The notes: generated from the sequence alone by a model not told the origin. DNA of 41,655 nucleotides from Syntrophobacterales bacterium (GCA_050123975.1 JASFGC010000001.1:1-41655); one strand, 5' to 3'; shown: positions 1,476 through 26,948, counted from the stretch's first letter. Translations and numbers: made by a program.

Positions 1476-1524
1476 AATCTGCAATCTGCATTCTGCATTC
1501 TGCATTCTGCATTCTAAAATCTAA
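1476..1524. repeat. tandem heptamer array, 7 units of A(A/T)TCTGC degenerating to AATCTAA
   Basis: Direct reading: aatctgc aatctgc attctgc attctgc attctgc attctaa aatctaa. Confidence 0.9.
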
Positions 1525-1534
1525 TACTCGGTGA

Positions 1535-2137
1535 TCATTTTTTCTTGAGTTTCCTGAGTTCCAGGGCGCAGACTGACGGATCCGGTTTCTTGTTGATATC
1601 CGTCACCTGAATGAATCGTAAGTACCCTTCTTTATCGACAATAAAAAGGGCCCGCTCAGTAACGCCATCGGATCGCAGCACTCCATATGTCTTTGCCACT
1701 TCGCCGTGTGGCCAGAAATCTGACAGCACATGAAACCACACATCTCCAATCTGCTTTGTCCAGGCATGGAGCGTTGGGATGTTGTCCACCGTGATCCCGA
1801 GTAGTACTGCGTCGGTTTCGGAAAAGACATCTTTTACAATATTGTAGCCCGGCCATTGCTTAGAGCATACAGGGGTCCAGGCTGCAGGAACAAATGAGAT
1901 TACAACATTCTTCTCTCCATGGAATTGGTGCAGAGCAATCTTCTCACCGGAAACCGACGGCAGAACAAAATCTGGGGCAAATTCGCCAACTTTTACCTTC
2001 AAAACGCTGTCTATGGGTTTTCGTTTTCCCGGGTCGTAGATACTCTTTTTTAATTCTTCTGACCGCCCCGAAGTGCGACTATTTAGACATACTAGTACCG
2101 CCACCAGAACCACACTGAGCTTCAGCAATCTTCTCAC
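1535..2137 (-). CDS. secreted peroxiredoxin (AhpC/TSA-redoxin family)
   Basis: N-terminal signal peptide (MRRLLKLSVVLVAVLVCLNS). Peroxidatic Cys motif FVPAAWTPVCSKQ. GTG start with AGAGG upstream. Confidence 0.8.
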   Translation of the reverse strand: MRRLLKLSVVLVAVLVCLNSRTSGRSEELKKSIYDPGKRKPIDSVLKVKVGEFAPDFVLPSVSGEKIALHQFHGEKNVVISFVPAAWTPVCSKQWPGYNIVKDVFSETDAVLLGITVDNIPTLHAWTKQIGDVWFHVLSDFWPHGEVAKTYGVLRSDGVTERALFIVDKEGYLRFIQVTDINKKPDPSVCALELRKLKKK

Positions 2138-2274
2138 GGCTATAACCTCTTCAGATCAGATCCAGAATTTGCAGGAGCACTGTAAATTAACTTAGATTAT
2201 AGGAGAGTTCAACTTCTCTAACCCGGACATTTCATGAATCCGAAATTCGTCCCCCCTACCCCATGCTCCATGCT

Positions 2275-2727
2275 CTAATCCTCCGGCTCAAAGTGACAAA
2301 CCGCCGAAGATTCCAGGCATAAAACTTGGCACAGCTCATCAAGCACCTTTTGTTCCGGTTCACTGAAATCGCCGTCTGCTTTGGCAATCAGGATACCGCC
2401 ACGAACGAGCAGTGAGGCTTTCTCCTCATCGCCAGAAAACTTAGCAACAGCTTTCAACACCTCTTTTTTTGCTGTGCCAAAATCCTCTTTGATTGCTTTG
2501 CCCCAGTCTTGGAACAGATTGACCGCCTGGTGTACATCGAATACTTTGAGTTCGTTGACGTTTTCCAAGATGAAATCGAGTGCCAGCCGTTCCGAGAGCA
2601 CGATCTCTTCGTCTGCAAGAGCTAAAAGAGCAGTAGCCGCCATCATAGAATCAAGGAATGGTTTATTGCGATGTCGTTCCAGTTTCTCTGCCATTGATTT
2701 TCTGGCGGCACGAAAGATATTAGCCAT
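2275..2727 (-). CDS. TerB-like (tellurite-resistance TerB fold) protein
   Basis: 150 aa, helical, with acidic EE/DGD motifs (LALADEEIVLSERLAL ... IAKADGDFSEPEQKVLDEL) typical of TerB/DjlA-N domains. Confidence 0.55.
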   Translation of the reverse strand: MANIFRAARKSMAEKLERHRNKPFLDSMMAATALLALADEEIVLSERLALDFILENVNELKVFDVHQAVNLFQDWGKAIKEDFGTAKKEVLKAVAKFSGDEEKASLLVRGGILIAKADGDFSEPEQKVLDELCQVLCLESSAVCHFEPED

Positions 2728-2827
2728 AATCTTCCCCTTGTCTTTTAGCTAGTTCAGAGATCTATTGAGCCCAGCGTCTCCTAAGGAAAGGTATTATAAC
2801 CTACCAGCCCTTTCTCACAACTATTGT

Positions 2828-4708
2828 TTAAGCATCTGTGGCATCATCGAAGTCCATGTGAATCTCTATATCGCCCCCTTCCCTCGATGTTTTCAGGTTG
2901 GGATATCTTTTTTTGAAAACGCGGATCATTGCTGCATTTTCTCGCAGGACGTAGGCGGAAAAAGCTTTGTACTGGTTTTCTCTGGCGATCTTCTCAAGAA
3001 CTCCGAGAAGGTAGGAGGCTATTCCCATGCCCTGATGGTCCTCGCGTACAATGAAGGCCACCTCCGCAGTGGTTTCGTCCACCATCCCATATGAACCTGT
3101 GGCAACCACATCCAAGTTTCCCCTGTTACGCACCAGACCGATCATGGTCATGTTTTTTTTGTAGTCTAGTGTGGCCAAATGCTTCTGCAGATCTTCGTGG
3201 GTAAATATCTTCCTGTTATGAAAAAACCTGTAATAGATGGTCTGCTTGGTGAGAGAATAGAAGAAATTCCTTGAGGCCAGTTCATCCGACGCAAGAAGGG
3301 GGCGAAACTCGATGGTTCGGCCATTCTTCATGAGCATGGTGCTCTTGTAGCCGTCCAGAAAAAGCAGGTCTTCTGGTTGTGGAGGTAATTGGGTGGGGAA
3401 TATGTAGTGGCGCTCCTTTGCCGCCTCCATGAGATCTTCACGAAATTTGGGATGAGCTATCTGGGCCAATTCCACCACTCTCTGATAGATGCTTTTCCCC
3501 TGAAGTTCCGCGATACCGTATTCGGTCACCACGAAATTCACATCACCCCGCGTGGTGGCCACTCCTGCCCCTTCTGACAGGTGGGGCACTATGCGAGATG
3601 TTTTACCTTCTTGCGTTGTAGAGGGCAGCACAATGATGGAAAATCCCCCTTTGGACATGGTACTGCCGCGGAGGAAGTCCACCTGGTCTCCGAGGCCGCT
3701 GTAGAACAAGTATCCCATGGAATCGGAGCACACCTGGCCCGTAAGGTCTACCTCCAAGGCGGAACTAATTGAAACCAGGTTATCGTTTTGGGCGATAACT
3801 GTCGGATCGTTGACAAATTCCGAGGAGCGGAAATAGAACATGGGATTGTCATTCACGAAGTCATAAATTTTCTCTGATCCCATACAAAGGGAGGCCACCA
3901 CGCGCCCGGGAAGAAATGTCTTCCTTTTGTTAGTTATTGCCTTCTTTTCAAAAAGAGGCAGAAAGCCATCGCTGATCAGATGAGTATGTACCCCCAGGTC
4001 CCTCTTTTCGCCCAGATATTTCAAAATGGAGTAAGGCAATTGCCCAAAGCCGAGGTGCAGCGTGGCCCCGTTATCCACGAGCTGGGAAACGTAATGGCCG
4101 ATTCTTCGGGCCACCTCGGTTTCAGTTATCGTAGGGAGAGAAACCACCAGAGGTTCTTCATGCAACACCAGGTAGTCGATTTCATCCACATGAACAAAGC
4201 TGTCTCCTGAGGTCCTGGGCATCATGGGATTGATTTGGGCAATAACCAACTGCGCATTGTCCATTCCTGCTCGGGTGATATCCACAGAGACACCCAGGCT
4301 GCAATTGCCAAATCTGTCTGGCGGACTCACCTGTACGAGAGCCACATCAAGACCGATGCGTCTTCTGTAAAAAAGCCGCGGAACCTGAGAAAGGTAAGCC
4401 GGTATGTAATCAATCTTGCCATCGAAAGCGGCTTCCCGCATGGCGAGACTGATATGGAAAAGCTTTAATGAGAACCTGCTCAGAAAGGAATCGTCATCAA
4501 CATAATCCGCCAGCGTCTGAGAAAGCATCTGATAGACGATCATGTCTTCTAGTTCGGTGTTTTGCACCATAGCCCGGATCAGGTGCTGGGGCTCCCCGCA
4601 TCCTGTACCAAGGAAGACTCTGCTACCAGGTTTAACTTTTGAGATTGCTTGAGTAGCCTCAACTATTTTTTCAGGGCAATAGTCGCTCAACCATTTAGTG
4701 TAGTCCAT
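2828..4708 (-). CDS. acetyl-CoA hydrolase/CoA-transferase family domain fused to a C-terminal GNAT acetyltransferase domain
   Basis: The N-terminal ~430 aa carry the AbfT/Cat-type signatures ALEVDLTGQV and GDQVDF. The C-terminal ~150 aa carry the GNAT core QGMGIASYLLGVLEKIAREN. Confidence 0.8.
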   Translation of the reverse strand: MDYTKWLSDYCPEKIVEATQAISKVKPGSRVFLGTGCGEPQHLIRAMVQNTELEDMIVYQMLSQTLADYVDDDSFLSRFSLKLFHISLAMREAAFDGKIDYIPAYLSQVPRLFYRRRIGLDVALVQVSPPDRFGNCSLGVSVDITRAGMDNAQLVIAQINPMMPRTSGDSFVHVDEIDYLVLHEEPLVVSLPTITETEVARRIGHYVSQLVDNGATLHLGFGQLPYSILKYLGEKRDLGVHTHLISDGFLPLFEKKAITNKRKTFLPGRVVASLCMGSEKIYDFVNDNPMFYFRSSEFVNDPTVIAQNDNLVSISSALEVDLTGQVCSDSMGYLFYSGLGDQVDFLRGSTMSKGGFSIIVLPSTTQEGKTSRIVPHLSEGAGVATTRGDVNFVVTEYGIAELQGKSIYQRVVELAQIAHPKFREDLMEAAKERHYIFPTQLPPQPEDLLFLDGYKSTMLMKNGRTIEFRPLLASDELASRNFFYSLTKQTIYYRFFHNRKIFTHEDLQKHLATLDYKKNMTMIGLVRNRGNLDVVATGSYGMVDETTAEVAFIVREDHQGMGIASYLLGVLEKIARENQYKAFSAYVLRENAAMIRVFKKRYPNLKTSREGGDIEIHMDFDDATDA

Positions 4709-4746
4709 ACATTCTCCTCAAGTGACCATGGTGTAATTTCAACTTT

Positions 4747-4795
4747 AAATCTAAATTCTGCGATCCGCAATGTGTAATCTTAATTCTGCAATCTT
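4747..4795. repeat. degenerate heptamer array (AATCTNN / GATCCGC family)
   Basis: aatctaa attctgc gatccgc aatgtgt aatctta attctgc aatcttt, read in a 7-nt register. Confidence 0.7.
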
Positions 4796-4832
4796 TTCGC
4801 CTTAGTAAAACATTTGAAATATAACCACATTC

Positions 4833-4861
4833 TTGACAAACATGCAGTCGGCTACCATAAT
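4833..4861 (+). promoter_or_regulatory. sigma-70-type promoter candidate TTGACA-N17-CATAAT, ~340 nt upstream of pta
   Basis: Perfect -35 hexamer at 4833-4838, 17-nt spacer, CATAAT at 4856-4861. No ORF of 60 aa or more lies between it and pta. Confidence 0.45.
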
Positions 4862-5203
4862 TCGAAGTAGAATAACATTTCGTTAGGGGTTAGGATTCAT
4901 CTACCAGCTTAGATCCCAAATATTTTACAACATTGTAACAAACAGAACCGAGCTCTCCAGATAGAATATCGCCCCGGAATCTGCCGTGCGAAGGCGATGG
5001 CTACTGTTCTATCAACTACCGCGAGAAATGAGCACAGGGACAACTCAGTGAATAAACAGTTCTTGCTAGCCATAAAGGTGCTGATATTTTTTTGGTAGAA
5101 GAGCCAGATCTGAGTTAACAGATTGGCCTGCTAACAAGAGGACGAATACATCGACGCGGGTGCAGCCCTTGACGCGGCAGCTCGAACAGGAGGCAATGAC
5201 TAC

Positions 5204-7291: not shown

Positions 7292-7293
7292 GA

Positions 7294-7410
7294 GATTTCG
7301 GATTGGGATTGCGGATTAATGAAAGGCGCACGGCACAAGGCGTAAGGCTTAAGGCAATAGTAGGCTAAATCTTTTCCTTGCGCCCTGAGCCTTGAGCCGT
7401 ATGCCTCTTT
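7294..7410. repeat. composite heptamer arrays: GGATTGC family, then AAGGC(G/T)T units, a spacer, then inverted GAGCCTT units
   Basis: gatttcg gattggg attgcgg ... caaggcg taaggct taaggca ... ctgagcc ttgagcc gtatgcc. The two halves are roughly reverse-complementary. Confidence 0.8.
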
Positions 7411-7473
7411 TGATACTGGCTCCTGAATCCTTTAATTTCAGATCTTGATAGGTAACTTGAGAGAGAAAGGCAG

Positions 7474-8694: not shown

Positions 8695-8710
8695 ACTGCG
8701 GATTTGAGAA

Positions 8711-8740
8711 GGCATAGAGCATAGAGCATAGGGTATAGAG
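8711..8740. repeat. tandem heptamer array (GCATAGA family, ~4 units) between ackA and the ferredoxin gene
   Basis: ggcatagagcatagagcatagggtatagag, directly followed by the RBS aaaggaga. Confidence 0.85.
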
Positions 8741-8753
8741 TAAAGGAGAACCC

Positions 8754-11015: not shown

Positions 11016-11086
11016 GATCTCAGGGTTTCAGGTGTCGGGTGTCAGGTGTCAGGAAAGAAAAACAAAAACACTGAAATCTGAGACCT
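11016..11086. repeat. hairpin-type repeat: CAGGTGT heptamer arm, purine-rich loop, inverted arm
   Basis: ggtttcaggtgtcgggtgtcaggtgtcagg / aaagaaaaacaaaaaca / ctgaaatctgagacc, immediately 3' of aor. Confidence 0.8.
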
Positions 11087-11209
11087 CCACAAAAGCTCGC
11101 AATCTTTACTACAAATCGAATGGGCTCTGATTTGGCCTTAAGGACCAGGTTTTCGATATTGAACAAAAAGCTGAAAGCTGACCACTTACAGCTCATATGA
11201 AAGGTTTAA

Positions 11210-12148
<939 letters not shown>

Positions 12149-12150
12149 TG

Positions 12151-12197
12151 AGCTATCAGCTATCAGCTTTCAGCCGTCAGCGATCAGCGGTCAACTG
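12151..12197. repeat. tandem heptamer array (6 degenerate units, GC(T/G/C)NTCA)
   Basis: gctatca gctatca gctttca gccgtca gcgatca gcggtca, starting 3 nt after the ldh stop. Confidence 0.9.
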
Positions 12198-12236: not shown

Positions 12237-12400
12237 GATTTCGGATTGGCGATTAACGATTAGCGTGTCTTGCGAAGAAATTGGATATCTTGCACTCAAT
12301 CACGATTTTAAGAAAAAAACTAAACCGTAAATCCGAAATCCAGAATTTAGAATCAATCTTCGTTTTTAAATCCGCAATCCGCATTCCGCATTCCACAATC
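12237..12400. repeat. inverted pair of GATTNNC / GCAATCC heptamer arrays flanking ~100 bp upstream of fba
   Basis: The left arm at 12237-12265 reads gatttcg gattggc gattaac gattagc. Right arms at 12328-12358 and 12368-12400 read aaatccg caatccg cattccg cattcca caatc. Confidence 0.8.
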
Positions 12401-13445: not shown

Positions 13446-13526
13446 TTTCAGGTGCCAGGTGTCAGGTTTCAGGTGTCAGGGAAGAAGAACAACAGAACTG
13501 AAACCTGAACACTGAACACTGAAACC
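13446..13526. repeat. hairpin-type repeat: CAGGTGT/CAGGTTT arm, purine-rich loop, inverted CTGAACA/CTGAAAC arm
   Basis: tttcaggtgccaggtgtcaggtttcaggtgtcagg / gaagaagaacaacagaa / ctgaaacctgaacactgaacactgaaacc, immediately 3' of fba. Confidence 0.85.
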
Positions 13527-13558: not shown

Positions 13559-15238
13559 GTGGAAGAAACAACCAGAGCTCATAAGGCGAGGCTGGCAATC
13601 AGAACATTCAAGATCGTTGCTGATGCTCTCTTTTTGAGGGGAAGTTATGCCCTGGGGGGAAAGTCCGGCCAGGCACTGGAAGATGCACTGCGAACCCTCA
13701 GCCCCGAAATCTACGGAAGCATGAATGACCCAAAGAGTATCGAACTCAAAGGGCTGGAGTACATTCTGGACAGACTCCCGAGGGGCATCGAAGAATGTCA
13801 TCGATTTGTCTTGACCGCGAAAGAAGATCTGGATGGCACCTCGTTTGAGAAAATCCAACCACCCAAGCGAAGAAGGATTTCCTATCGTGTTAGTGAGAAC
13901 GAAATGTGTTTTGTTATCACCCGGGGTTCCAGTGAGATCTACGACATCCTCACCCATATGACCTTTCTCTACCTAGAAGCGAAAAAGCTGCATGACCGCA
14001 TGAGAGATGACAGTGGCAATCCAACCATAGAATGGAGAGAGCTTGAAAAGATCGTTGGTTCGGGGGCTGACTTAAGCGGTAAGGACCTGGATCGAGCAAT
14101 CTGGAGCTTGAGCGTTCTTCTTGGTAGGCCTTACCATGAAACTAAGGAGACCTATGAATATTTTGAAAATAGCAGAACCAAAGCGAACGCCAATAACGGT
14201 CTTTTCAGTATTGTCTATAACCTTGGGAAACGTGTGGAGGATGAGCGAGAGAATAACGACATGTTCACAGTATACTTCACCCCTTCTCTCATAGATGTAA
14301 TGCTGCATCAAGTATACTGTAAGAGATGGGCTGCATCGATTAAAGATGCAATATGGAACCTTGGACTCCAGAATCGTCCTTTGCACATCATCAGCGCAAA
14401 CATGCACAGCGTATTGAATCTGTTATACGGTTACGGTGCAGTGAAAGATGAACAAAAGAAAAAAGACAGTGAAGAACTCTATACCTTTATTCAAGATATC
14501 AGTGATGAAGCAGGACTGATAAAAGAGTATGCGGCAAAGCACGGTTTCAATGAGCTGCCGGACAAAAGTGGAGCCCAGATTGATTGTCAACTCATTGATA
14601 CTGCCATGCTCGAATCCGTTGATTTTCACCCCGCAATAGCTGTGGACAAGAACCGTCTTTTTAGCGAGAAACCGGTGCTCTTAGTCATGGACTATGCTTT
14701 CGGGACCCAGGCATTCTCAGCCATGGATGAGCTTCTTCGACCTTGGGAAGAAGAAGACTCTCAGCGAATGCTCAATGTACATTCCGTCTCGGTGATGGGA
14801 AAAGCAGGCATCCTACCCGGACAGAAGGGGGACATCATGCTGGCATCCGCCCACGTGCTCGAGGGGGTGCCTCACACCTACATTGTAGAAAATGATCTGA
14901 GCAGAGAAAATTTCGACGACTCCGCGAACGTTTACGTTGGGCCCATAGTTACTGTTCTCGGCACTTCACTTCAGAACAAAGATGTTCTCGAAATGTTCCA
15001 AACCACGACCTGGAGGGCGGTTGGCTTAGAGATGGAGGGTGGCCACTACCAACGCGCGGTGGATGCTGCAATAGTTCGTGAGCACATCTCAAAAGACGTC
15101 AAGGTGAGATATGCCTACTATGCTTCGGATAACCCGCTCAAGAGCGGCCAGACCCTTGCTGCAGGCCCCCTGGGGAAAGAAGGTATTCGACCCACCTACA
15201 TGATAACCAAGGCCATTTTAAAGAAAATACTTACGTAA
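13559..15238 (+). CDS. unknown protein with a C-terminal nucleoside-phosphorylase (PNP_UDP_1 / AMP-nucleosidase-like) fold and a ~330-aa uncharacterised N-terminal region
   Basis: The C-terminal blocks are VLLVMDYAFGTQA, VSVMGKAGIL..GDIMLASAHVLEG, VGPIVTVLGT and AVGLEMEGGHY. They line up in order with the remembered E. coli Amn blocks ITLVNIGVGPSNA, MIGHCGGL..GDYVLAHAYL, TGTVVTTDD and AVAIDMESA. GTG start with GAGGGA upstream. Confidence 0.45.
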   Translation: MEETTRAHKARLAIRTFKIVADALFLRGSYALGGKSGQALEDALRTLSPEIYGSMNDPKSIELKGLEYILDRLPRGIEECHRFVLTAKEDLDGTSFEKIQPPKRRRISYRVSENEMCFVITRGSSEIYDILTHMTFLYLEAKKLHDRMRDDSGNPTIEWRELEKIVGSGADLSGKDLDRAIWSLSVLLGRPYHETKETYEYFENSRTKANANNGLFSIVYNLGKRVEDERENNDMFTVYFTPSLIDVMLHQVYCKRWAASIKDAIWNLGLQNRPLHIISANMHSVLNLLYGYGAVKDEQKKKDSEELYTFIQDISDEAGLIKEYAAKHGFNELPDKSGAQIDCQLIDTAMLESVDFHPAIAVDKNRLFSEKPVLLVMDYAFGTQAFSAMDELLRPWEEEDSQRMLNVHSVSVMGKAGILPGQKGDIMLASAHVLEGVPHTYIVENDLSRENFDDSANVYVGPIVTVLGTSLQNKDVLEMFQTTTWRAVGLEMEGGHYQRAVDAAIVREHISKDVKVRYAYYASDNPLKSGQTLAAGPLGKEGIRPTYMITKAILKKILT

Positions 15239-16726: not shown

Positions 16727-16730
16727 TAGG

Positions 16731-16864
16731 GGATTTTGGATTGCGGATTGCAGAATCGAAGGTTTCAGGTGTCAGGTGTCAGGAAAAAGAACAATAGAAG
16801 CTGAAACCTGAAACCCAGAGATTTCTCCTTCGGAGTCCCCACCCTGCGGGCGGGGCCCCGGTTT
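16731..16864. repeat. composite intergenic element: GGATTGC units, then a CAGGTGT hairpin module, then a 47-bp GC-rich module
   Basis: The first part reads ggattttggattgcggattgcagaatcg. The hairpin module reads ggtttcaggtgtcaggtgtcagg-aaaaagaacaatagaag-ctgaaacctgaaacc. The GC-rich module reads gagatttctccttcggagtccccaccctgcgggcggggccccggttt. A near-identical copy lies at 25140-25243. Confidence 0.9.
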
Positions 16865-16933
16865 TGTGTTTAGAATTGAAGATTTGGACTTGAAAACAAT
16901 AAAGCATGAACGGGCTCTGTTACTACCTAAGCG

Positions 16934-19229: not shown

Positions 19230-19949
19230 GTGATGAGTGAGGTAGGTATGGACGCAGACGAAAAAACGTGTCTTCCCTTCAGCCGGGTCTGCTTTAGGGA
19301 AAGATTTTCAGGTCTGCTCATCTTCATCATGGCTATTCTTATCCTTGGACCTCTCGTTGATGAGTTTGTCCAAATACGTATCTTCATAGACATCCTTTGG
19401 ACTGCTGTTTTTGCATCCGCCATTTATGCAGTCAGCCAAAAGAAACATCATATCATTATTGCCGTACTGCTTGCTCTGCCCATGCTGGGGGGATTATGGT
19501 CCAGACATTTTGTGGGGCATCACTCTCTGCAGGTAGTGGGTTACCTGTGCGGAGCTGCCTTTATTCTTTTTGCAATTATTCAGATGCTGATCTTTATCTA
19601 TAGTCACAAGGAGGTCACCAGAGATCTTATCATCGGTGCGGCGGTAGTCTATTTGCTCATGGCCATAATGTGGACATTCGTTTTCATCGTTGTGGAGACA
19701 CTTCACCCCGGCTCATTTAACCTCCCAGAGGGTCAGAGTATAGAGACCGGCGAACATTTTATTTACTTTAGCTTTGTCACTTTAACCACCCTGGGCTACG
19801 GTGACATTACCCCCGTGACGAGACTGGCAAGAAATTTGTGTACTCTCGAGGCAGTGATCGGCCAACTCTACCTGGTAGTGCAGGTTGCCTGGCTGGTGGG
19901 TGTCCATGTTTCCCAATCAATGCTGAAGAGAGCCGGACGGGATGATTGA
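19230..19949 (+). CDS. potassium channel family protein (multi-TM N-terminus + pore loop)
   Basis: Selectivity filter TLTTLGYGDITP, flanked by hydrophobic helices. Confidence 0.8.
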   Translation: MMSEVGMDADEKTCLPFSRVCFRERFSGLLIFIMAILILGPLVDEFVQIRIFIDILWTAVFASAIYAVSQKKHHIIIAVLLALPMLGGLWSRHFVGHHSLQVVGYLCGAAFILFAIIQMLIFIYSHKEVTRDLIIGAAVVYLLMAIMWTFVFIVVETLHPGSFNLPEGQSIETGEHFIYFSFVTLTTLGYGDITPVTRLARNLCTLEAVIGQLYLVVQVAWLVGVHVSQSMLKRAGRDD

Positions 19950-19954
19950 TTGAG

Positions 19955-19978
19955 GATTTGCGATTGCGGATTGTGGAC
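19955..19978. repeat. short GATTGCG heptamer array between convergent genes
   Basis: gatttgc gattgcg gattgtg gac. Confidence 0.75.
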
Positions 19979-20893
19979 TTATTCAAGAAGCGCTGAGCGC
20001 AAGCGTTCGAGGGTAGCGTCATCTATCTCCAGCCCCTCCTTAAGATACCCCTCAAAGGAGCCGTATTTTTGGTCTATGGCCTCGAAGGCAGCTTCCAGGT
20101 ATTCCGGCCTCACTTCCATCAAGGCGCGTACTTCGCTGCGCGGAGTTCGGAAAAGAGAGGCGCAGTTGGCAAAACATGACAGTCTGTCCGCCTCACTCTC
20201 CCAGAAGGTGTTGCTCAACATGTAGTCTTCCAGTACTGTCTCCTCAGGTACACCGAGAGAACGGAGCACTATGGCCACCGAAACTCCCGTCCGGTCCCGA
20301 CCATAGGTGCAGTGAATGAGTCCGGGCAGACCTCCGGGCTCAGCCATATTCCGTAACAGCAAGGACCACTCGGAAGTGTAGTTCAAAACATAATTCCGGT
20401 AGCATTCCAGCATCAAACCTTTGAAGTCTCCCTCTTCCACATCACCTTTCAAGATCCTTTTGGCCACTGCGTAAGGGTCAATGAGTTCACAGTCAACAGA
20501 AAAATGAACCACCTCCAGCGAGGTGACTTCTGATAGCCGGGGGGGATCCTTTTCGCGTTCCCTTTCAGTGCGCAGATCGTAGACTGTCTTCACCCCGAGG
20601 GCAACGACCGCTTCAACATGTCTCTTCCTCACTCTCTTCAGGTGATCCGAGCGGTAGAGCATCCCCCTCTTGATCTGTCTGCCGTCCATGGTGCTGTAGC
20701 CACCGAGATCTCGAAGGTTGCGGGCACCAGCAAGTTCAACACGGCTGGGATGCTCTGGTGGCGCAGTAGCGCAGCCCAAGAAAAGAAGAAGGGCAGCGAC
20801 GATGATAGCGCCGAGGGATTTCGGATTGGGGATTGGGGATTGCGGATCTCGGATTGCGGATCTCGGATTGCGGAATGCGGATTTAATAATCAT
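19979..20893 (-). CDS. lipoprotein protein-tyrosine phosphatase (Y_phosphatase3-like, CX5R)
   Basis: Catalytic loop HCTYGRDRTG. Lipobox-like LLLFLGC. I place the start at the ATG at 20893 (MIIKSAF...). The track's longer ORF is read-through of the repeat array. Confidence 0.75.
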   Translation of the reverse strand: MIIKSAFRNPRSAIRDPQSPIPNPKSLGAIIVAALLLFLGCATAPPEHPSRVELAGARNLRDLGGYSTMDGRQIKRGMLYRSDHLKRVRKRHVEAVVALGVKTVYDLRTEREREKDPPRLSEVTSLEVVHFSVDCELIDPYAVAKRILKGDVEEGDFKGLMLECYRNYVLNYTSEWSLLLRNMAEPGGLPGLIHCTYGRDRTGVSVAIVLRSLGVPEETVLEDYMLSNTFWESEADRLSCFANCASLFRTPRSEVRALMEVRPEYLEAAFEAIDQKYGSFEGYLKEGLEIDDATLERLRSALLE

Positions 20894-20934
20894 TGTGGAA
20901 TTCAGATGGCGGATCACGGATCGCGGATTTAAGA
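20816..20934. repeat. 17 in-register heptamer units (GGATTGC/GGATCTC family); units 1-11 lie inside the phosphatase CDS
   Basis: ggatttc ggattgg ggattgg ggattgc ggatctc ggattgc ggatctc ggattgc ggaatgc ggattta ataatca ttgtgga attcaga tggcgga tcacgga tcgcgga tttaaga. Confidence 0.9.
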
Positions 20935-21017
20935 TGTTCAGTATATACCTCAAAAGAGTACCATTTTCGTTCAGAATCAAAGAATCTAATAGCCAGTGGC
21001 AAGTAGGTAGTACTTAG

Positions 21018-21246
21018 GTTTCAGGTGTTCCGCCGGAGGCGGATAAGGTGTCAGCAGTAAACGGTAACTCGTTATCGACAGCCATTTAACTCAAATTTCT
21101 TGATTTCTAAATTCCTCAATTGCCCTGCGGACTCCCACCCTTCGGGCGGGTTCCCAGTTTCGAAATTCGCAATTCAAAATTCGCAATTACTTCTCTATGC
21201 CCTATGCCCCATGCTCTATGCCTTCTAAAGTCCGAAATCCGCAATC
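21018..21246. repeat. mosaic of intergenic repeat modules
   Basis: A CAGGTGT fragment is interrupted by the hairpin ccgcc-ggag-gcgg. An AATTGAGGAATT module (reverse-complemented) lies at 21090-21123. A GC-rich module lies at 21123-21160. Heptamer arrays cgaaatt cgcaatt caaaatt cgcaatt and tatgccc tatgccc catgctc tatgcct follow, then ccgaaatccgcaatc. Confidence 0.85.
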
Positions 21247-21247
21247 T

Positions 21248-22567: not shown

Positions 22568-22583
22568 TTTCTGAGCCCCTCGC

Positions 22584-23639
22584 CTAGAAAACCTGAATAT
22601 TGCCGGCGTCCACTTCGGCGATTACATGCTGGATACGGTCCCAAAGAGCATCGATCTCCGCTTTTGAAAGACCGTATTGCAGTATTCCATCTTTGTACTT
22701 CGCACCCACTTTGGGGTCCAGGTTCTTCCCCACCGGTTTCGGTTGCAGAACTCCATTCTGATCTAATTCAAACTGGACTATCACGGCCAGGAAATTCAGG
22801 TCCTGCCGTTGTATCTTTCGCAACCGCTCGATGGAATTTTTGCGCAGCGCCGGCACATGAATGTCTTCCCACTGCTGAATGAAAAAATTGTATGGCCAGA
22901 AACCAAAGGAAATGCCGTTGTCAATGGAGAATACCTGACGCCGCTTGTCGTCCTTTGAAACCAGGAATTGCCCCACCCGGTTATCGCGGTGTTGGATTAG
23001 GTAGGTGAGAAGGTTAAAGTTGGACATAAAGTAGGCGTAGGTAGGATCCTTAAGAAAGCGCGACTCATCGTACAATGTGTCGGGAACTGTGACGTCCTTC
23101 ATCCATATGGAAGCAAGACCCAAAACGCAATCCGTTCCCTCCAGGGTCGCAGCAGCATACCCACCCCTCTTCATAAACCTATCACGGGATATGCAGACCG
23201 GTAGAGCAGTGGGCACCACGTAATCTTCGGGGTCCAGAAAAAACTTCTGCACATTATAAGCAGCAATCTCTTTACGCGGCGAGGTGTTGAAGCTGTCAAC
23301 CCAGCCCGGAACATTCTTTTTGAACTTCCACTTTATGTCCTTGCCGCTCACTGTGTCATGGTTGATGAGGACCAAGGCGCCGGTGGTACCACGTGCCGTC
23401 CTCTCCACCTCCTTGGCCTGTAATTTCCCTTCCACCCCTCTCTGGTATATCTTGGTCTCCAGCTCCTGGGGGGTGAACTGCCAGTTGGGAAATTCACCTT
23501 TGACACTGGGAGAGAGGGCTTTCTTGAATTGCAGTTGGCGGTCCTCGACCGTGCCCCTGCTAGCGCAACCTGCGAAAGACAAAATGAAGCCGAACAAAAG
23601 AATGAATAAAAGTCCGAACCGAAGTGCGCTCTTTTTCAT
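22584..23639 (-). CDS. lipoprotein with kinase-like catalytic motifs (PI3/PI4-kinase or protein-kinase-like)
   Basis: Signal peptide plus lipobox (LSFAGC). It has an HRD-type catalytic loop (YLIQHRDNRVGQFLV) and a DFG-equivalent (FSIDNGISFG) about 20 aa downstream. That arrangement recalls type II PI4K (..DR..N..L / IDNGLAF). The ORF itself is solid. The fold call is tentative. Confidence 0.4.
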   Translation of the reverse strand: MKKSALRFGLLFILLFGFILSFAGCASRGTVEDRQLQFKKALSPSVKGEFPNWQFTPQELETKIYQRGVEGKLQAKEVERTARGTTGALVLINHDTVSGKDIKWKFKKNVPGWVDSFNTSPRKEIAAYNVQKFFLDPEDYVVPTALPVCISRDRFMKRGGYAAATLEGTDCVLGLASIWMKDVTVPDTLYDESRFLKDPTYAYFMSNFNLLTYLIQHRDNRVGQFLVSKDDKRRQVFSIDNGISFGFWPYNFFIQQWEDIHVPALRKNSIERLRKIQRQDLNFLAVIVQFELDQNGVLQPKPVGKNLDPKVGAKYKDGILQYGLSKAEIDALWDRIQHVIAEVDAGNIQVF

Positions 23640-23801
23640 CTCCTTCTCCTTTGGATAAGGTGGTCAAGACAATGCGGTTACTATAAGTACTGTTCATGAT
23701 TGTGTAAAGCTCTTAATTCATTAGTATGATTACCTAGACTTTTCACCAGATGGATTAACTGCTATTCTAACCCCTATTTCTCATTCGGAATTATGTAGAA
23801 A

Positions 23802-23962
23802 GATGTGAGATGTGGGATGTGGGGAGGCATAGGGCATGGGGTATGGAGCATAGAGCATAGAGTAGATGGTGGATGTGGGATGTGAGATGTGAGATTGTGG
23901 ATTTTGCCTTGTGTCCTGAGCCTTGAGCCTTACGCCTCCTGACACCTGAAACCTGAAACCTA
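23802..23962. repeat. 23 consecutive in-register heptamer units that switch between five motif families
   Basis: GATGTGR x3, TAGRGCA-like x6, GATGTGR-like x6, CCTTGAG-like x5, AMACCTG x3, with no register break (parsed by hand from 23802). Confidence 0.9.
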
Positions 23963-24010
23963 ACAGAAGATGTGGAACTAAAGGTGAACATCGTGTTGCA
24001 GAAGCATAAA

Positions 24011-25102: not shown

Positions 25103-25139
25103 GTTCGCTTGAGATGAATAAGGTTGTAGGAGGAATGGA

Positions 25140-25243
25140 GGTTTCAGGTGTCAGGTGTCAGGTGTCAGGAAAAAGACACAGAAAAGCTGAAACCCTGAGA
25201 TTTCTCCTTCGGAGTCCCCACCCTCCGGGCGGGGCCCCGGTTT
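25140..25243. repeat. second copy of the composite CAGGTGT-hairpin + 47-bp GC-rich module
   Basis: The hairpin part reads ggtttcaggtgtcaggtgtcaggtgtcagg-aaaaagacacagaaaag-ctgaaaccct. The GC-rich part reads gagatttctccttcggagtccccaccctccgggcggggccccggttt. The 47-bp part has one mismatch against 16818-16864. Confidence 0.9.
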
Positions 25244-25294
25244 AGTGATTCGGATGTGGGATTTTTGAATGCGGATATGGGGTGGTGCGCCAGC

Positions 25295-25323
25295 TTGACT
25301 TAAGGGCTAAAGAGCTTTATTTT
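25295..25323 (+). promoter_or_regulatory. sigma-70-type promoter candidate TTGACT-N17-TATTTT
   Basis: Read directly. It lies ~65 nt upstream of the 85-aa ORF. Confidence 0.35.
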
Positions 25324-25389
25324 AGTTGATCGTGTTACACTACGAGTTGTTATCACGCCGCTGGAAAAAATGCTCAATGGGAGGTTCGC

Positions 25390-25647
25390 ATGGCTAAAGA
25401 GAAGGTAAAAAAAATGACTGGCGTTTTCGCATCTGTCTTTTCCCACGCTGGTCACATTTCCAAAGAGGACGCGAAGGAAATAAGTGGATTAGATGATTCA
25501 AGTTTTGAAGAAGTCTATGCAAAAGCATCGAATGTGGCGGAAAAGCTCATGAAGGCCGAAGGAGACAAAGCTGATAAGTTCTTGGAGCATTTTGCCGAAG
25601 AAATCGATGAATGGATGAAAGAATTTAGTGCTAAGTTCGGTTTTTAA
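25390..25647 (+). CDS. small acidic helical hypothetical protein (85 aa)
   Basis: ORF with GGGAGG RBS-like sequence upstream (aatgggaggttcgc ATG). No family recognised. Confidence 0.5.
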   Translation: MAKEKVKKMTGVFASVFSHAGHISKEDAKEISGLDDSSFEEVYAKASNVAEKLMKAEGDKADKFLEHFAEEIDEWMKEFSAKFGF

Positions 25648-25764
25648 GGCTAGGACATGAGGTGTGGTTTCCGCCACATCCCTGGAACGCTTGGAGTGAC
25701 CAGACGGAGGGAAAGGAAGACGAGACATCCTGAGTATGGTCTTGACCGACGAGGGCCGAGCCGT

Positions 25765-26775
25765 TCAGGTTCCCGAGCCTTTCTGCAGTTGTTTAGCACG
25801 CTCCTTATAGCCAATGATTCTGTCTTTGGATTCAGGCTCTATCTCAATTACTCGGTCAAAGTCCCCTATCGCTCCAGCGTAATCTCCCAAATCCTGCTTC
25901 AGTATTCCACGCCTCAGATAACCATCAATGTACTCTGAATTCAACGCGATTGCCCTGTCAAAATCTTCCAATGCCTCGGAGTGATTGCCCAGATTCTCTT
26001 TTGCTATTCCGCGATTACAATACGCCTCAACAAATTGTGAATTCAACTCGATCGCCCTACTGTAGTCCTTTATTGCTCCCATGTAGTTTGACTGTTCAGC
26101 CTTTATGTTGCCGCGGTTATTGTAAGCGTTGGCATATTCCGGATTTATCTCAATTGCTTTGTTGTAGTCTGCTTTTGCTTGCTTTAAATTCTTAACTGTC
26201 TCTTGGGCCAAACCACGACTATTCAAAACATTGGCGAGAAGAAAAATAGATGGATATTCCAGAAAATCCTTTTCATCTAAATCGTAATCGAATCCGAGCG
26301 GGTCTGTGTTGTCGATAGTATAGAGAGTGTCATCAACTCTCAATCTATTTACCATATGACTGTCACTCACCAGGATTGTAAGATTCAGACTTTCCCTCAA
26401 GCCTAATACGGTAAAGAGAGCCGTCAAACCAACACACGAACCCACCTTGCGATTCACGTCAGGATCCAGTTGCGCGTCAATTACATCGGTCAGGAGAAAA
26501 TTACCATCGCACCTTCTCGGTTTTGTGTTCCAGAGGTATTCAAACAGCGACTGAGCCAGGGAGGCTATCATATATTCCCTCAAGGCGGACAGACTTACGG
26601 GACTCTTTGATGTCAGCTTTTCAATAAAGCCATGATAAATCTGATCCAGTTTTTGGGTGTATTCTCCAATCTCTTCCTCTGTTTTCAGCCCGGAGATTAT
26701 CAATAGACCTCTTTCCAGAGAGATATCCCTGCCTTCCTTAACGTCTTGAATGAGTTTCTCTTCCAAGCTTGCCAT
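25765..26775 (-). CDS. TPR-repeat protein with N-terminal transglutaminase-like (SirB1/YchA-like) region
   Basis: The C-terminal half holds 4-5 canonical TPRs (A..Y..AIE.NP....AY.NRG). The N-terminal half has GSCVGLTALF ... H ... D spacing. The track start at 26787 is TTG. An ATG lies at 26775. Confidence 0.7.
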   Translation of the reverse strand: MASLEEKLIQDVKEGRDISLERGLLIISGLKTEEEIGEYTQKLDQIYHGFIEKLTSKSPVSLSALREYMIASLAQSLFEYLWNTKPRRCDGNFLLTDVIDAQLDPDVNRKVGSCVGLTALFTVLGLRESLNLTILVSDSHMVNRLRVDDTLYTIDNTDPLGFDYDLDEKDFLEYPSIFLLANVLNSRGLAQETVKNLKQAKADYNKAIEINPEYANAYNNRGNIKAEQSNYMGAIKDYSRAIELNSQFVEAYCNRGIAKENLGNHSEALEDFDRAIALNSEYIDGYLRRGILKQDLGDYAGAIGDFDRVIEIEPESKDRIIGYKERAKQLQKGSGT

Positions 26776-26892
26776 ACTTTTTAGCAATTATTTAAAATAG
26801 TTCGTTAGTCCGTGGAGTAAAATTAGCGGCTCAACGGTAGCACAACTTACCTGCTGAGGTCAAAAAGTCCCACTAAACAATTCTCGCTATCC

Positions 26893-26948
26893 CCTGACAC
26901 CTGAAACCTGACACCTGACACCTTTCGTTATGCCCCATGCTCTATGCC
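26893..26948. repeat. heptamer arrays ACACCTG/AAACCTG then TATGCCC/CATGCTC
   Basis: cctgacacctgaaacctgacacctgacacc ... ttatgccccatgctctatgcc. Confidence 0.85.

What the first reader, a model, noticed from the sequence alone, without database searches (positions are those of the whole stretch)
1476..26948. Pervasive degenerate heptanucleotide tandem repeats in intergenic spacers, analogous to cyanobacterial STRR
Seen: roughly fifteen intergenic spacers between 1.4 and 27 kb contain tandem 7-mers. They are drawn from a small vocabulary: GGATTGC/GCAATCC, CAGGTGT/ACACCTG, CAGGTTT/AAACCTG, GCATAGA/TCTATGC, AAGGCTT/GAGCCTT, GATGTGR, GCNNTCA and AWTCTGC. They start within a few nt of stop codons (for example 12151 after ldh and 13446 after fba). 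One array sits between ackA and the next RBS (8711-8740). The right-hand 14 kb of the window is almost free of them, with only cgctatg x2 at 34707-34720. Established: short tandemly repeated repetitive (STRR) heptamers are known from heterocystous cyanobacteria. As far as I recall, heptamer arrays have also been noted in large filamentous sulfur bacteria. I am not aware of them as a described feature of the lineage suggested by this gene content. Inference: this is a genome-wide repeat system with possible roles in transcript punctuation or stability, nucleoid-protein binding or recombination.
Basis: partly seen in the sequence, partly recalled or inferred. Interest (0 to 1): 0.65.

Follow-up and report, generated by a model that had tools for sequence, protein, structure and literature searches.

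The report
Heptamer repeat arrays between genes
The spaces between genes in this uncultured sulfate-reducer-like bacterium hold short runs of 7-base repeats that grow and shrink in 7-base steps. This is a real feature, but it is the same kind already described in cyanobacteria and Xanthomonas, and its function is still unknown.

Summary
I found 26 period-7 arrays where about 1.8 are expected by chance, and almost all lie in intergenic DNA. They are not an artefact. Nine independent assemblies that are 99.8-99.99% identical carry them, and every clean indel between those assemblies is 7 or 14 nt inside an array.

The arrays are not confined to the window. They resume about 6 kb past its right end. 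They also occur, with the same units, in relatives whose pyruvate kinase is 79-92% identical, but not in relatives at 75% or below.

Their distribution is patchy. About 20 kb spanning the window's right part has none.

Orientation is polar. G/T-rich units follow stop codons and C/A-rich units precede start codons. This is the rule already published for heptamer repeats in Xanthomonas and Nostoc.

The verdict is a new member of a known kind, in a Desulfobacterota (probably Syntrophobacteria) lineage.

The hairpin or "punctuation" idea is only weakly supported here, because complementarity within spacers is no better than chance and no covariation was found.

One side result deserves follow-up. 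Small PF05635 "23S rRNA intervening-sequence protein" genes sit between inverted heptamer arrays, both in this population (present or absent between strains) and on plasmids of cyanobacteria, Chloroflexota and Treponema.

The parts
1475..1515 (-). AATCTGC/ATTCTGC x5.4 (reads GCAGAAT/GCAGATT on the - strand), 19 nt 3' of the AhpC stop
2252..2275 (-). CCATGCT x2-3 (AGCATGG on the - strand), abuts the TerB stop
4744..4794 (-). Degenerate AATCTnn run in the divergent AcCoA-hydrolase/pta spacer. Seen by eye, not called by TRF.
7294..7317 (+). GGATTnC x3.6, 3 nt after the pta stop
7337..7355 (+). AAGGCkT x2.7, 5' arm of an inner hairpin
7376..7398 (-). CCTTGAG x3.3, the complementary 3' arm. RNAfold pairs it with 7337-7355.
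8712..8742 (+). GCATAGA x4.1 between the ackA stop and the next ribosome-binding site. One unit is missing in L082, L084 and L086.
11024..11081 (+). CAGGTGT x4.3, then an A-rich 17-nt loop and a CTGAAAT arm (the 'CAGGTGT hairpin module', copy 1)
11167..11181 (+). AAAGCTG x2.1, 34 nt upstream of ldh. It is inverted relative to 12148-12193. The same pair flanks ldh in relative L094.
12148..12193 (+). TCAGCnn x5.4-6, starting at the ldh stop
12237..12265 (+). GATTnnC x3-4
12369..12400 (-). AATCCGC x4.6, 19 nt upstream of fba. One unit is missing in L082 and L083.
13448..13480 (+). CAGGTGT x4.7, 3 nt after the fba stop (hairpin module copy 2, 5' arm)
13497..13523 (-). CTGAAmC x3.9 (module copy 2, 3' arm)
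16731..16751 (+). GGATTkC x3, 4 nt after the pyk stop
16760..16783 (+). CAGGTGT x3.4 (module copy 3). Three alleles exist: +0, +7 and +14 nt.
16798..16815 (-). CTGAAAC x2.1-2.6 (module copy 3, 3' arm)
19948..19977 (+). GATTGCG x4.3 filling the convergent ion-channel/phosphatase spacer. In 8 other contigs a PF05635 gene cassette sits here.
20816..20884 (+). GGATTGC/GGGGATT x9.7, the longest array
20910..20928 (+). CGGATCA x2.7
21159..21188 (-). TTCGAAA/ATTCGCA x4.3 (GAATTGC on the - strand)
21195..21222 (-). CTATGCC x4 (GCATAGR on the - strand)
21232..21246 (-). CCGAAATCCGCAATC (GATTGCGGATTTCGG on the - strand), abutting the stop of the TLC-like transporter gene
23801..23823 (+). GATGTGR x3.1
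23826..23862 (+). GCATrGr x5.1
23862..23902 (+). GATGTGR x5
23906..23931 (-). GCCTTGw x3.7
23938..23961 (-). CCTGAAA x3.4, 10 nt upstream of the GluR-like gene
25139..25197 (+). CAGGTGT x4.4 plus A-rich loop plus CTGAAAC (module copy 4)
26893..26923 (-). CCTGACA x4.4
26930..26948 (-). ATGCCCC/CTATGCC x2.7
34707..34720 (.). CGCTATG x2, the only array in the right-hand 14 kb. It is minimal and could be chance.

Best explanation
These are heptameric simple-sequence repeats of the kind already described in Nostoc, Xanthomonas, Beggiatoaceae and (as STRR) Calothrix. Here they occur in an uncultured Desulfobacterota clade, probably Syntrophobacteria.

Shown:
- The arrays are made and resized by strand slippage in 7-nt steps.
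- They survive almost only in non-coding DNA.
- They survive in one orientation relative to genes. G/T-rich units lie on the coding strand just after stop codons, and C/A-rich units lie on the coding strand ahead of start codons. Any spacer therefore reads 5'-G-rich...C-rich-3' on either strand.

Inferred:
- The arrays are transcribed UTR sequence.
- Slippage produces them continuously, and selection on the mRNA removes the wrong orientation. One candidate pressure is against G-rich, Shine-Dalgarno-like or structured leaders. Another is against C-rich, unstructured, Rho-prone RNA right after a stop codon.
- The fixed 'chirality' of inverted pairs then follows without any dedicated function.
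- Where complementary arms happen to face each other they can fold into long imperfect hairpins. Small PF05635 genes ride in the loops of such hairpins, as in 23S rRNA intervening sequences.

I put about 0.9 on the identity as a heptameric SSR system, about 0.85 on slippage, and about 0.45 on the 'mutation plus orientation filter, no dedicated role' reading as a whole.
For: Excess and location: period 7 is 14-fold over shuffles, and 79 of 82 arrays are intergenic.

Slippage: among 9 contigs that are 99.8-99.99% identical to the window, the only indels outside divergent contig ends are -7 at 8712, -7 at 12378 and +7/+14 at 16765.

Polarity: pooled over 79 arrays, relative position in the spacer against (G-C)/length gives Spearman rho = -0.50, p = 2.5e-6. 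First half versus second half is 28:12 against 10:23, Fisher p = 0.001. In 63 independent metagenome loci the complementary arm lies downstream in 21 and upstream in 0.

Turnover: orthologous spacers in relative L094 keep arrays but often of another family. A whole spacer differs between L090 and L091, whose flanks are 99.4-100% identical.

No sign of selected pairing: unit complementarity within spacers equals the permutation expectation (3 observed, 2.9 expected of 21). There were 0 compensatory pairs in 5 module copies. Self-complementarity z-scores in the window's own spacers are mostly about 1-1.5 or below.
Against: - A restricted unit vocabulary recurs across very different genomes. GATT-core units make up 34% of the clade's arrays and 43% of the arrays around PF05635 genes on plasmids of other phyla. 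CAGGTGT occurs in contigs of 40-72% G+C. A pure by-product model does not predict this.
- Array families persist at orthologous sites across species, for example around ldh and after fba.
- Arrays are clustered in domains rich in central-metabolism and nuo genes.
- Arrays are 8.5-fold enriched next to PF05635 genes. That hints at a protein partner or a mobile module.
- Polarity in the window alone is not significant (8:3 against 5:8, p = 0.12).
- The selective pressures I name (translation initiation, Rho) are untested.
Confidence: 0.45

Rival explanations
1. Dedicated RNA structure elements ('transcript punctuation'). The G/U-rich array after a stop codon pairs with the C/A-rich array before the next start codon and loops out the spacer. 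The long imperfect stem is then cut by RNase III, or blocks exonucleases, or terminates transcription. Known parallels are rRNA intervening sequences, T7 intercistronic sites and REP elements.
For: - RNAfold pairs arrays with arrays in pta->ackA (z = -2.0), fba->DUF6909 (z = -2.2), pyk->pgm and the 560-nt TLC->phosphatase spacer (z = -1.8).
- Many metagenome (CAGGTGT)n loci form near-perfect stems of 20-30 bp around 14-137 nt of cargo.
- L094 carries a perfect GGAGTrr/TACTCCA hairpin where the window has a CAGGTGT hairpin.
- Between the window and L094, both arms of the fba hairpin lose one unit.
- PF05635 cassettes have the stem-ORF-stem build of 23S intervening sequences, which are RNase III substrates (PMC4990558).
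- No canonical intrinsic terminators were found above chance in 7-27 kb.
Against: - Within the clade, unit complementarity inside a spacer is no better than after shuffling arrays among spacers.
- Cross-spacer complementarity is often better than same-spacer complementarity.
- No compensatory changes were found.
- Arm lengths are uncorrelated (rho = -0.2).
- The polymorphism at 16765 changes one arm only.
- Several spacers hold only G-rich arrays, or non-complementary families, for example 23801-23961.
Confidence: 0.22
2. Multivalent binding sites for a single-strand or repeat-binding protein with a footprint of about 7 nt. Candidates are the pentameric PF05635 four-helix-bundle protein (the family of the DGR accessory protein Avd), or cold-shock, S1 or CsrA-type proteins. 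Binding would act on DNA or RNA.
For: - Arrays typically have about 4-5 units (PMC4692102).
- Spacers next to PF05635 genes hold 7.0 arrays per kb against 0.82 per kb in other intergenic DNA of the same 12 plasmid loci (p = 2e-8).
- Both PF05635 genes of this population are flanked by arrays.
- GATT-core units are shared across phyla.
- PMC4679880 proposes S1, Csp or CsrA for TAACTGA repeats.
Against: - At least 38 different unit families occur in the clade, which is too many for one specific binder.
- Most arrays are nowhere near a PF05635 gene: only 1 such gene in 431 kb of array-bearing metagenome loci.
- There is no binding data.
- The pentamer-to-five-units idea is numerology at this stage.
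Confidence: 0.15
3. Mobile, MITE-like or intervening-sequence-like modules. The [G-arm - loop - C-arm] unit would be a non-autonomous mobile element that spreads between spacers and genomes, and the PF05635 cassettes would be the full-length form.
For: - The 58-nt CAGGTGT module, including its A-rich loop, occurs 4-5 times in the window at 72-83% identity, and again in L094.
- A PF05635 cassette is present in 8 contigs and absent from the window at an otherwise 99.9% identical site. A second cassette is present in L090 and replaced by a gene-less heptamer hairpin in L091.
- The same units occur in unrelated genomes.
Against: - No target-site duplications, no conserved termini beyond the arrays, and no transposase were seen.
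- The empty site in the window keeps only one arm.
- The L090/L091 difference may be an imported divergent allele.
- Slippage alone can regenerate similar arrays.
Confidence: 0.12
4. G-quadruplex-forming regulatory repeats, as proposed for GGGAATC and GGGGAyT.
For: One stretch (20828-20841, GGGGATT x2) belongs to the Nostoc family.
Against: Only one G3+ x4 motif per strand exists in 41.6 kb. Most units have at most GG.
Confidence: 0.02
5. Assembly or amplification artefact, or classic phase-variation contingency loci.
For: The source samples look like small, fragmented assemblies: the largest contig seen is 68 kb and is numbered 0000001.
Against: - The same arrays occur in at least 9 independent samples with only 7n differences, in relatives from other projects including NCBI MAGs, and in bulk metagenomes.
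- The arrays sit between housekeeping genes, not in reading frames or between promoter hexamers of surface-protein genes.
Confidence: 0.02

Closest known systems
Heptameric intergenic SSRs of Xanthomonas (GGGAATC) and Nostoc PCC 7120 (GGGGAyT), Rehm et al. 2015 (PMC4692102)
   Same: [quoted passage not shown] The window's GGATTGG/GGGGATT variants are the Nostoc unit.
   Different: Here there are many unit families (at least 38 in the clade), and most have no G-tracts, so the G-quadruplex idea does not transfer. The host phylum is different.
Cyanobacterial STRR (short tandemly repeated repetitive sequences; Calothrix PCC 7601, Mazel et al. 1990). The unit sequences are recalled from memory.
   Same: Several heptamer families per genome; intergenic; in operons of highly expressed genes; copy-number variable. 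An Oscillatoria PCC 10802 locus fetched here has 12 arrays in 21 kb, including GCATGGG, GATTGTA and TTAGGTG units like those of the window.
   Different: The STRR1-3 units (CCCCAGT, TTGGTCA, CAACAGT) are absent. The host is not a cyanobacterium. Sharing of units with cyanobacterial loci is only modestly above chance (13 of 38 against 8.5 +/- 2.6 at up to 1 mismatch).
TAACTGA direct repeats of marine Beggiatoaceae, some Cyanobacteria and Bacteroidetes (MacGregor 2015, PMC4679880)
   Same: Intergenic heptamer arrays of 2-6 copies; scattered phylogenetic distribution suggesting exchange; placed close to gene ends.
   Different: That system has a single unit lying directly upstream of start codons in forward orientation. 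TAACTGA tandems are absent here. Here the arrays follow stop codons as often as they precede start codons.
Long simple sequence repeats of prokaryotes (Mrazek et al. 2007, as summarised in PMC4679880 and PMC4692102)
   Same: Heptanucleotide units are the commonest class of 5-11 nt repeats in repeat-rich genomes. Slippage linked to the polymerase footprint was proposed as the cause.
   Different: That is a statistical category, not a mechanism. This lineage was not in that survey.
Heptanucleotide elements of Geobacter metallireducens (Aklujkar et al. 2009, PMC2700814)
   Same: Four to five tandem heptamers (GGACCGG; MTYCTGA) at 49 and 15 sites in a former deltaproteobacterium, drawn as palindromic pairs.
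   Different: Those have fixed copy number and conserved flanks, and were annotated as regulator sites or RNA elements. The units are different.
23S rRNA intervening sequences with an S23p (PF05635) ORF (Coxiella, Leptospira; PMC4990558)
   Same: Stem-ORF-stem build. In Coxiella, tandem heptamers (GACAGAT) with copy-number variation lie next to the ORF. The stem is an RNase III substrate. The PF05635 cassettes here have the same build.
   Different: The cassettes here sit between protein-coding genes, not in rRNA, and their stems are heptamer arrays. Most arrays in the window carry no ORF.
REP/BIME elements and MITEs
   Same: Intergenic, imperfectly palindromic, often just after stop codons, dispersed.
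   Different: No conserved REP core, no RAYT or transposase, and no target-site duplication were seen. The internal 7-nt periodicity is not a REP feature.

Membership tests
Heptameric intergenic simple-sequence repeats (Xanthomonas/Nostoc type; LSSR) | Head-to-tail units of 7 nt, at least 2 copies, in excess over chance | tested here: met
   26 arrays against 1.8 expected; TRF rows
Heptameric intergenic simple-sequence repeats (Xanthomonas/Nostoc type; LSSR) | Strong bias to non-coding DNA | tested here: met
   79 of 82 arrays lie in the 16% of bases that are intergenic
Heptameric intergenic simple-sequence repeats (Xanthomonas/Nostoc type; LSSR) | Dispersed over the genome | tested here: inconclusive
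   Only about 59 kb of this genome could be read. Arrays lie in two domains and are nearly absent over about 20 kb and to the left of the window. They are present in four relatives.
Heptameric intergenic simple-sequence repeats (Xanthomonas/Nostoc type; LSSR) | Copy number and sequence vary between close relatives at the same spacer | tested here: met
   +/-7 and +14 nt alleles at three arrays among near-identical contigs; orthologous spacers compared with L094
Heptameric intergenic simple-sequence repeats (Xanthomonas/Nostoc type; LSSR) | [quoted passage not shown] | tested here: met
   rho = -0.50, p = 2.5e-6 pooled; co-directional spacers 26:8 against 7:19; the window alone is not significant; 21:0 in metagenome loci
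Heptameric intergenic simple-sequence repeats (Xanthomonas/Nostoc type; LSSR) | G-quadruplex potential (specific to the GGGAATC / GGGGAyT families) | tested here: not met
   One G4 motif per strand in the window
STRR sensu stricto (Calothrix STRR1-3) | Units CCCCAGT, TTGGTCA, CAACAGT (sequences recalled from memory); heterocystous cyanobacterial host | tested here: not met
   No tandem of these units in the window or relatives. Homologues at 83-88% identity are named Syntrophobacteria, Syntrophobacterales or Deltaproteobacteria.
TAACTGA repeat system (Beggiatoaceae) | Unit TAACTGA, forward orientation directly upstream of start codons | tested here: not met
   No TAACTGA tandem. The related CTACTGA occurs in relatives L094, L095 and L098.
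REP/BIME or MITE | Conserved core or terminal inverted repeats with target-site duplication; cognate RAYT or transposase | tested here: inconclusive
   A 58-nt hairpin module recurs 4-5 times, but no duplications or transposase were seen in the DNA read. The whole genome is not available.
Intervening-sequence-like cassette (stem - PF05635 ORF - stem) | PF05635 ORF enclosed by inverted repeats able to form a long stem | tested here: met
   This applies to the two cassettes in sister contigs, not to the window itself. Pfam scores are 57.4 and 44.3 bits against a 33.8-bit cut-off. Inverted arrays flank both. At least 9 of 12 plasmid homologues show the same.
Intervening-sequence-like cassette (stem - PF05635 ORF - stem) | Excision of the stem by RNase III | not testable with these tools
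   Needs RNA end mapping or in-vitro cleavage
Any curated RNA family | Match to an Rfam covariance model at gathering score | tested here: not met
   0 matches in the window; no tRNA or tmRNA

The most novel reading that the evidence does not exclude
Heptamer-array hairpins may be one cross-phylum class of intervening-sequence-like modules tied to the PF05635 four-helix-bundle protein, which belongs to the family of the DGR accessory protein Avd. Under this reading the protein gene rides in the loop between a 5' G/T-rich arm and a 3' C/A-rich arm. It comes and goes between strains, and gene-less hairpins and solo arrays are its relics or its binding sites. That would link the long-unexplained bacterial heptamer repeats (STRR, TAACTGA, GGGAATC) with the equally unexplained 'S23p / intervening sequence protein' family, and with the origin of rRNA intervening sequences.
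Probability: 0.2. Interest if true: 0.75.

Novelty: new member of a known kind. Interest (0 to 1): 0.45.

Why it matters
Heptamer repeats are the commonest class of longer simple repeats in repeat-rich bacterial genomes, and no function has been established for them in any organism.

This locus adds a lineage far from cyanobacteria and Xanthomonas that obeys the same orientation rule. That argues the rule is general and mechanistic rather than lineage-specific. It also comes with a natural population series: at least 9 near-identical contigs with 7-nt alleles, a cassette gain or loss, and a whole-spacer swap. Mutation rate and selection on arrays can be measured in that series.

On the practical side, the arrays probably explain why these assemblies are fragmented, and they create spurious ORF calls.

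The link to PF05635 genes, if it holds genome-wide, gives the first concrete protein candidate to test against these repeats.

Tried and rejected
- **Source genome.** The GTDB-representative scan with pyruvate kinase did not find the source genome or close relatives (best 68%).
- **Sample identifiers.** The JGI sample numbers were not found in the literature library.
- **Exact look-up.** The look-up of the glyoxalase ORF failed, probably because the called start differs.
- **Known RNAs.** No Rfam, tRNA or tmRNA hits.
- **Terminators and promoters.** Both scans were at chance level.
- **RNA structure.** There were 0 compensatory pairs and a consensus energy of only -8.7 kcal/mol for the CAGGTGT module. 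Self-complementarity of the window's spacers is mostly z about 1-1.5 or lower. A permutation test for complementary units inside spacers was negative (3 against 2.9). Arm lengths are uncorrelated.
- **Shared vocabulary with cyanobacteria.** This is only z of about 1.7 at up to 1 mismatch. Against metagenome loci, 10 exact families are shared against 3.6 +/- 1.8 expected, one of them by construction.
- **Named units.** STRR1-3, TAACTGA and GGGAATC tandems are absent, and the G-quadruplex idea is rejected.
- **PF05635 elsewhere.** No PF05635 genes in the 80 GTDB loci or the four relatives, and only 1 in 431 kb of array-bearing metagenome loci. Arrays therefore do not generally imply a nearby PF05635 gene.

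Full report

Yes. Tandem Repeats Finder returns about 30 period-7 rows between 1478 and 26923 and none to the right of 27 kb. A self-shift scan finds 26 period-7 arrays (563 nt) against 1.8 (26 nt) in first-order Markov shuffles. Neighbouring periods 8-13 give 0-1 arrays.

I built a gene map from ORFs plus Pfam. Reading left to right it holds:
- a peroxiredoxin gene, terB, and an acetyl-CoA hydrolase-GNAT gene;
- pta, ackA, a ferredoxin gene and an aldehyde:ferredoxin oxidoreductase gene;
- ldh, fba, a DUF6909 gene, pyk and pgm;
- an ion-channel gene, a Tyr-phosphatase gene, a TLC/MFS transporter gene, a GluR0-like channel gene and a TPR gene;
- then usp, cdaA, mgtE, CNNM and DHH genes, hsp20, groESL, a sigma-54 activator gene and a kinase gene.

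Fourteen spacers between 1.4 and 27 kb hold arrays. Seven arrays start 0-5 nt after a stop codon. Median size is about 4 units.

**2. Not an artefact, and variable in the population**

The window's pyruvate kinase is encoded, residue for residue, on at least 13 contigs from different JGI samples. Nine of them align to the window at 99.8-99.99% identity. Apart from divergent contig ends in L085 and L088, the only indels are all inside arrays:
- minus 7 nt at 8712 (GCATAGA; three contigs);
- minus 7 nt at 12378 (TCCGCAT; two contigs);
- plus 7 nt (three contigs) or plus 14 nt (five contigs) at 16765 (TCAGGTG).

About fourteen SNP sites separate the same contigs over about 21 kb. Per base, arrays therefore change several times faster than the rest, and always by whole units. 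This is the signature of slippage.

**3. Extent**

- Ten kb beyond the window's right end (L090) there are three spacers of about 500 nt without arrays. Nine arrays then follow in and around a nuo-like operon, with the same units.
- Seven kb beyond the left end (L232) there are only three small arrays, all inside a doubtful 101-codon ORF.
- Inside the window, 4.2 kb of intergenic DNA on the left holds 25 arrays. The 1.46 kb on the right holds one minimal array.

The system is therefore patchy rather than uniformly 'pervasive'. The array-rich domains hold central-metabolism and respiratory genes. I cannot say why.

**4. Lineage and relatives**

The species-representative scan found nothing closer than 68% identity. 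The protein search found homologues at 83-88% that their sources name Syntrophobacteria, Syntrophobacterales or Deltaproteobacteria MAGs. A Syntrophobacteraceae MAG shares pyk, ferredoxin and AOR at 65-74%. I therefore call the host an uncultured Desulfobacterota, probably Syntrophobacteria. This placement is weak.

Contigs encoding pyruvate kinases 92, 85, 83 and 79% identical (L094, L095, L096, L098) carry 9, 15, 5 and 12 arrays. Their units are the same: GATT-core, GCATrGr, GATGTGG, CAGGTGT, TCAGCnn and CTACTGA. A 75% relative (L099) and the 65-68% MAGs (L001, L002) carry none or one. The trait is thus shared by a clade and is not universal in the class.

At orthologous spacers the window and L094 share some arrays. 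Examples are the inverted GCTGAnn/TCAGCnn pair around ldh and the CAGGTGT hairpin after fba. Elsewhere they differ entirely: L094 has a perfect GGAGTrr/TACTCCA hairpin where the window has a CAGGTGT one.

**5. Anatomy: polarity**

Over 79 intergenic arrays from the window, L090 and the four relatives, G-rich arrays lie in the first part of a spacer and C-rich arrays in the second. Spearman rho is -0.50 (p = 2.5e-6). First half against second half is 28:12 versus 10:23 (Fisher p = 0.001). The window alone gives 8:3 versus 5:8, which is not significant.

This order reads the same on both strands. It is equivalent to saying that the coding strand is G/T-rich after stops and C/A-rich before starts.

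An independent test used 63 metagenome loci that hold (CAGGTGT)3 and have at least 150 nt on each side. The complementary CCTGnnnCCTG arm is downstream in 21 and upstream in 0 (p about 1e-6).

Rehm et al. reported the same orientation preference for GGGAATC in two Xanthomonas species and for GGGGAyT in Nostoc PCC 7120. They also reported a mode of four units, 70-75 'convergent' inverted pairs per genome, transcription of most repeats, length variation between sister species, and no detectable regulatory role (PMC4692102).

**6. Anatomy: hairpins**

Some spacers clearly contain inverted arrays that RNAfold pairs:
- pta->ackA, with GGATTnC...GAATCC outside and AAGGCnT...GCCTTGA inside;
- fba->DUF6909;
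- pyk->pgm;
- the 560-nt TLC->phosphatase spacer.

A 58-nt module occurs 4-5 times in the window. It consists of (CAGGTkT)n, a purine-rich loop of about 17 nt, and (CTGAAAC)n.

In metagenome contigs the same arms often form perfect stems of 20-30 bp around 14-137 nt of cargo.

The tests for selected pairing in this clade were weak or negative:
- The window's own spacers are mostly no more than about 1-1.5 sd more self-complementary than shuffles, and often match other spacers better.
- Only 3 of 21 multi-array spacers have unit-complementary arrays, which equals the permutation mean of 2.9.
- Five module copies show no compensatory change.
- Arm lengths do not correlate.
- The 16765 polymorphism alters one arm only.

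Polarity is therefore the general rule, and pairing is an occasional consequence.

**7. Breadth**

The 80 stretches that were loaded range from 40 to 72% G+C and carry 6.5 period-7 arrays per 10 kb overall. An Oscillatoria locus fetched by chance has 12 arrays in 21 kb.

Sharing of unit families between this clade and other genomes is above chance but modest:
- 13 of 38 against 8.5 +/- 2.6, and 17 of 38 against 12.2 +/- 2.9, at up to 1 mismatch;
- 10 exact matches against 3.6 +/- 1.8 for metagenome loci.

GATT-core units dominate both here (25 of 74 arrays) and around PF05635 genes on plasmids (20 of 47).

**8. A side finding that bears on mechanism**

Eight of the sister contigs carry a 120-codon PF05635 ('23S rRNA intervening sequence protein', four-helix bundle) gene between the ion-channel and phosphatase genes. 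It is flanked by (GATTGnA)n upstream and (TnCAATC)n downstream. The window lacks it and has only a GATTGCG array at 19948-19977.

A second PF05635 gene, 30% identical to the first, sits in the nuo-like operon of L090 between GAAATTC-type and GAATTTC/GGATTTC-type arrays. In L091 the whole spacer is instead a gene-less (GGAATTn)n-loop-(nAATTCC)n hairpin, while the flanks are 99.4-100% identical.

A tblastn search of plasmids with the first protein finds 27 records: 23 cyanobacterial, 2 Ca. Chlorohelix, 1 Bernardetia and 1 Treponema. I inspected 12 loci:
- At least 9 have arrays on both sides of the gene.
- Usually the G-rich array is 5' and the complementary C-rich array is 3'.
- The best inverted match between the two flanks scores 11-41 across the 12 loci, and is 14-41 in nine of them.
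- Spacers next to the gene hold 7.0 arrays per kb, against 0.82 per kb in other intergenic DNA of the same loci (p = 2e-8). The caveat is that the PLSDB gene table is incomplete.

The build (stem, ORF, stem) is that of 23S rRNA intervening sequences. In Coxiella these even have copy-variable GACAGAT heptamers next to the ORF and are cut by RNase III (PMC4990558).

The ORF sits inside the G...C bracket, which is the opposite of ordinary genes. It therefore looks like cargo in a spacer hairpin.

Conversely, most arrays have no such gene nearby. I found no paper that links the two.

**9. What it most likely is and does**

Identity is secure: a heptameric SSR system of the known bacterial kind. 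The slippage origin is well supported. For function I commit, at about 0.45, to the simplest reading that fits both the positive and the negative tests:
- Arrays are produced continuously by 7-nt slippage.
- They are transcribed as UTR sequence.
- They are filtered by selection on orientation, which alone explains the strict G-then-C order in every spacer topology.
- Hairpins and PF05635 cargo are secondary.

The rivals are dedicated RNA punctuation (0.22), protein-binding arrays (0.15) and mobile intervening-sequence-like modules (0.12). They remain open mainly because of the shared vocabulary, the domain distribution and the PF05635 link. G-quadruplexes, phase variation and artefact are rejected.

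**10. Novelty and score**

This is a new member of a known kind. It is a useful natural system with 7-nt alleles, a cassette gain or loss and a spacer swap, and it gives a testable lead in PF05635. The core phenomenon, its orientation rule and its unknown function are already in the literature. Interest: 0.45.

Noticed in passing
window 19948-19977; L081:14660-15145; L090:18983-19561; L091:15565-15754: PF05635 (23S rRNA intervening-sequence protein, four-helix bundle) gene cassettes bracketed by inverted heptamer arrays are present or absent between near-identical contigs of one population. One site is empty in the window. At the other, the cassette is replaced in L091 by a gene-less heptamer hairpin.
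   Followed up: partly
plasmid loci L100-L111 (Gloeocapsa, Ca. Chlorohelix, Planktothrix, Nostoc, Dolichospermum, Anabaena, Treponema, others): Homologous four-helix-bundle genes sit between genes of defence-type operons (DUF1156 gene / HEPN gene, helicase / methylase, cas genes). They are flanked by a G-rich heptamer array 5' and the complementary array 3'. Array density is 8.5-fold above other intergenic DNA in the same loci.
   Followed up: partly
window 27000-41655 and L090:11343-17390; L232:13900-21881: Arrays come in domains. About 20 kb (usp, cdaA, mgtE, groESL, sigma-54 activator, kinase and small genes) has essentially none despite several 200-580-nt spacers. About 7 kb left of the window has only three small arrays.
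   Followed up: partly
window 16804-16885 and 25183-25264; reverse-oriented relative at about 21090-21135: An 82-nt dispersed element (87% identical copies) follows the CAGGTGT hairpin module. It contains a GC-rich hairpin (CCCCACCCTGCGGGCGGGG) plus a T-rich tail and may be the real terminator of pyk and of the GluR-like gene. The consensus terminator scan did not pick it up.
   Followed up: no
window 1452-1474 (- strand) and 7319-7341: A shared motif ATGAAAGGCGCAyGGCACAAGG directly follows the GATTGC-type array after the AhpC stop and after the pta stop.
   Followed up: no
L085:3-500 (window 11187-11692) and L088:12100-12359 (window 23574-23794): Dense SNP clusters occur at contig ends in otherwise 99.9% identical contigs. 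They could be strain mixtures, recombination tracts or chimeric assembly ends.
   Followed up: no
window 20718-21017 (+), 19979-20980 (- ORF extension); L081:15967-16182; L232:14898-15203: ORF finders and the public gene calls read through heptamer arrays. This produces spurious 70-100-codon 'genes' and an over-long phosphatase ORF (333 aa against the 236 aa called elsewhere).
   Followed up: partly
metagenome loci L112-L191: The exact 21-mer (CAGGTGT)3 occurs in at least 120 stretches from soil, peat, sediment, mat and water metagenomes. The 80 stretches that were loaded range from 40 to 72% G+C. The arrays often form the 5' arm of a near-perfect hairpin around 14-137 nt of unrelated cargo, sometimes with other heptamer hairpins nested inside (L147, L181).
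   Followed up: partly
window 13559-15238 and L094, L096: A DUF6909 gene is conserved directly upstream of pyk in this clade. In L096 it is reduced to a 45-codon remnant next to pyk.
   Followed up: no
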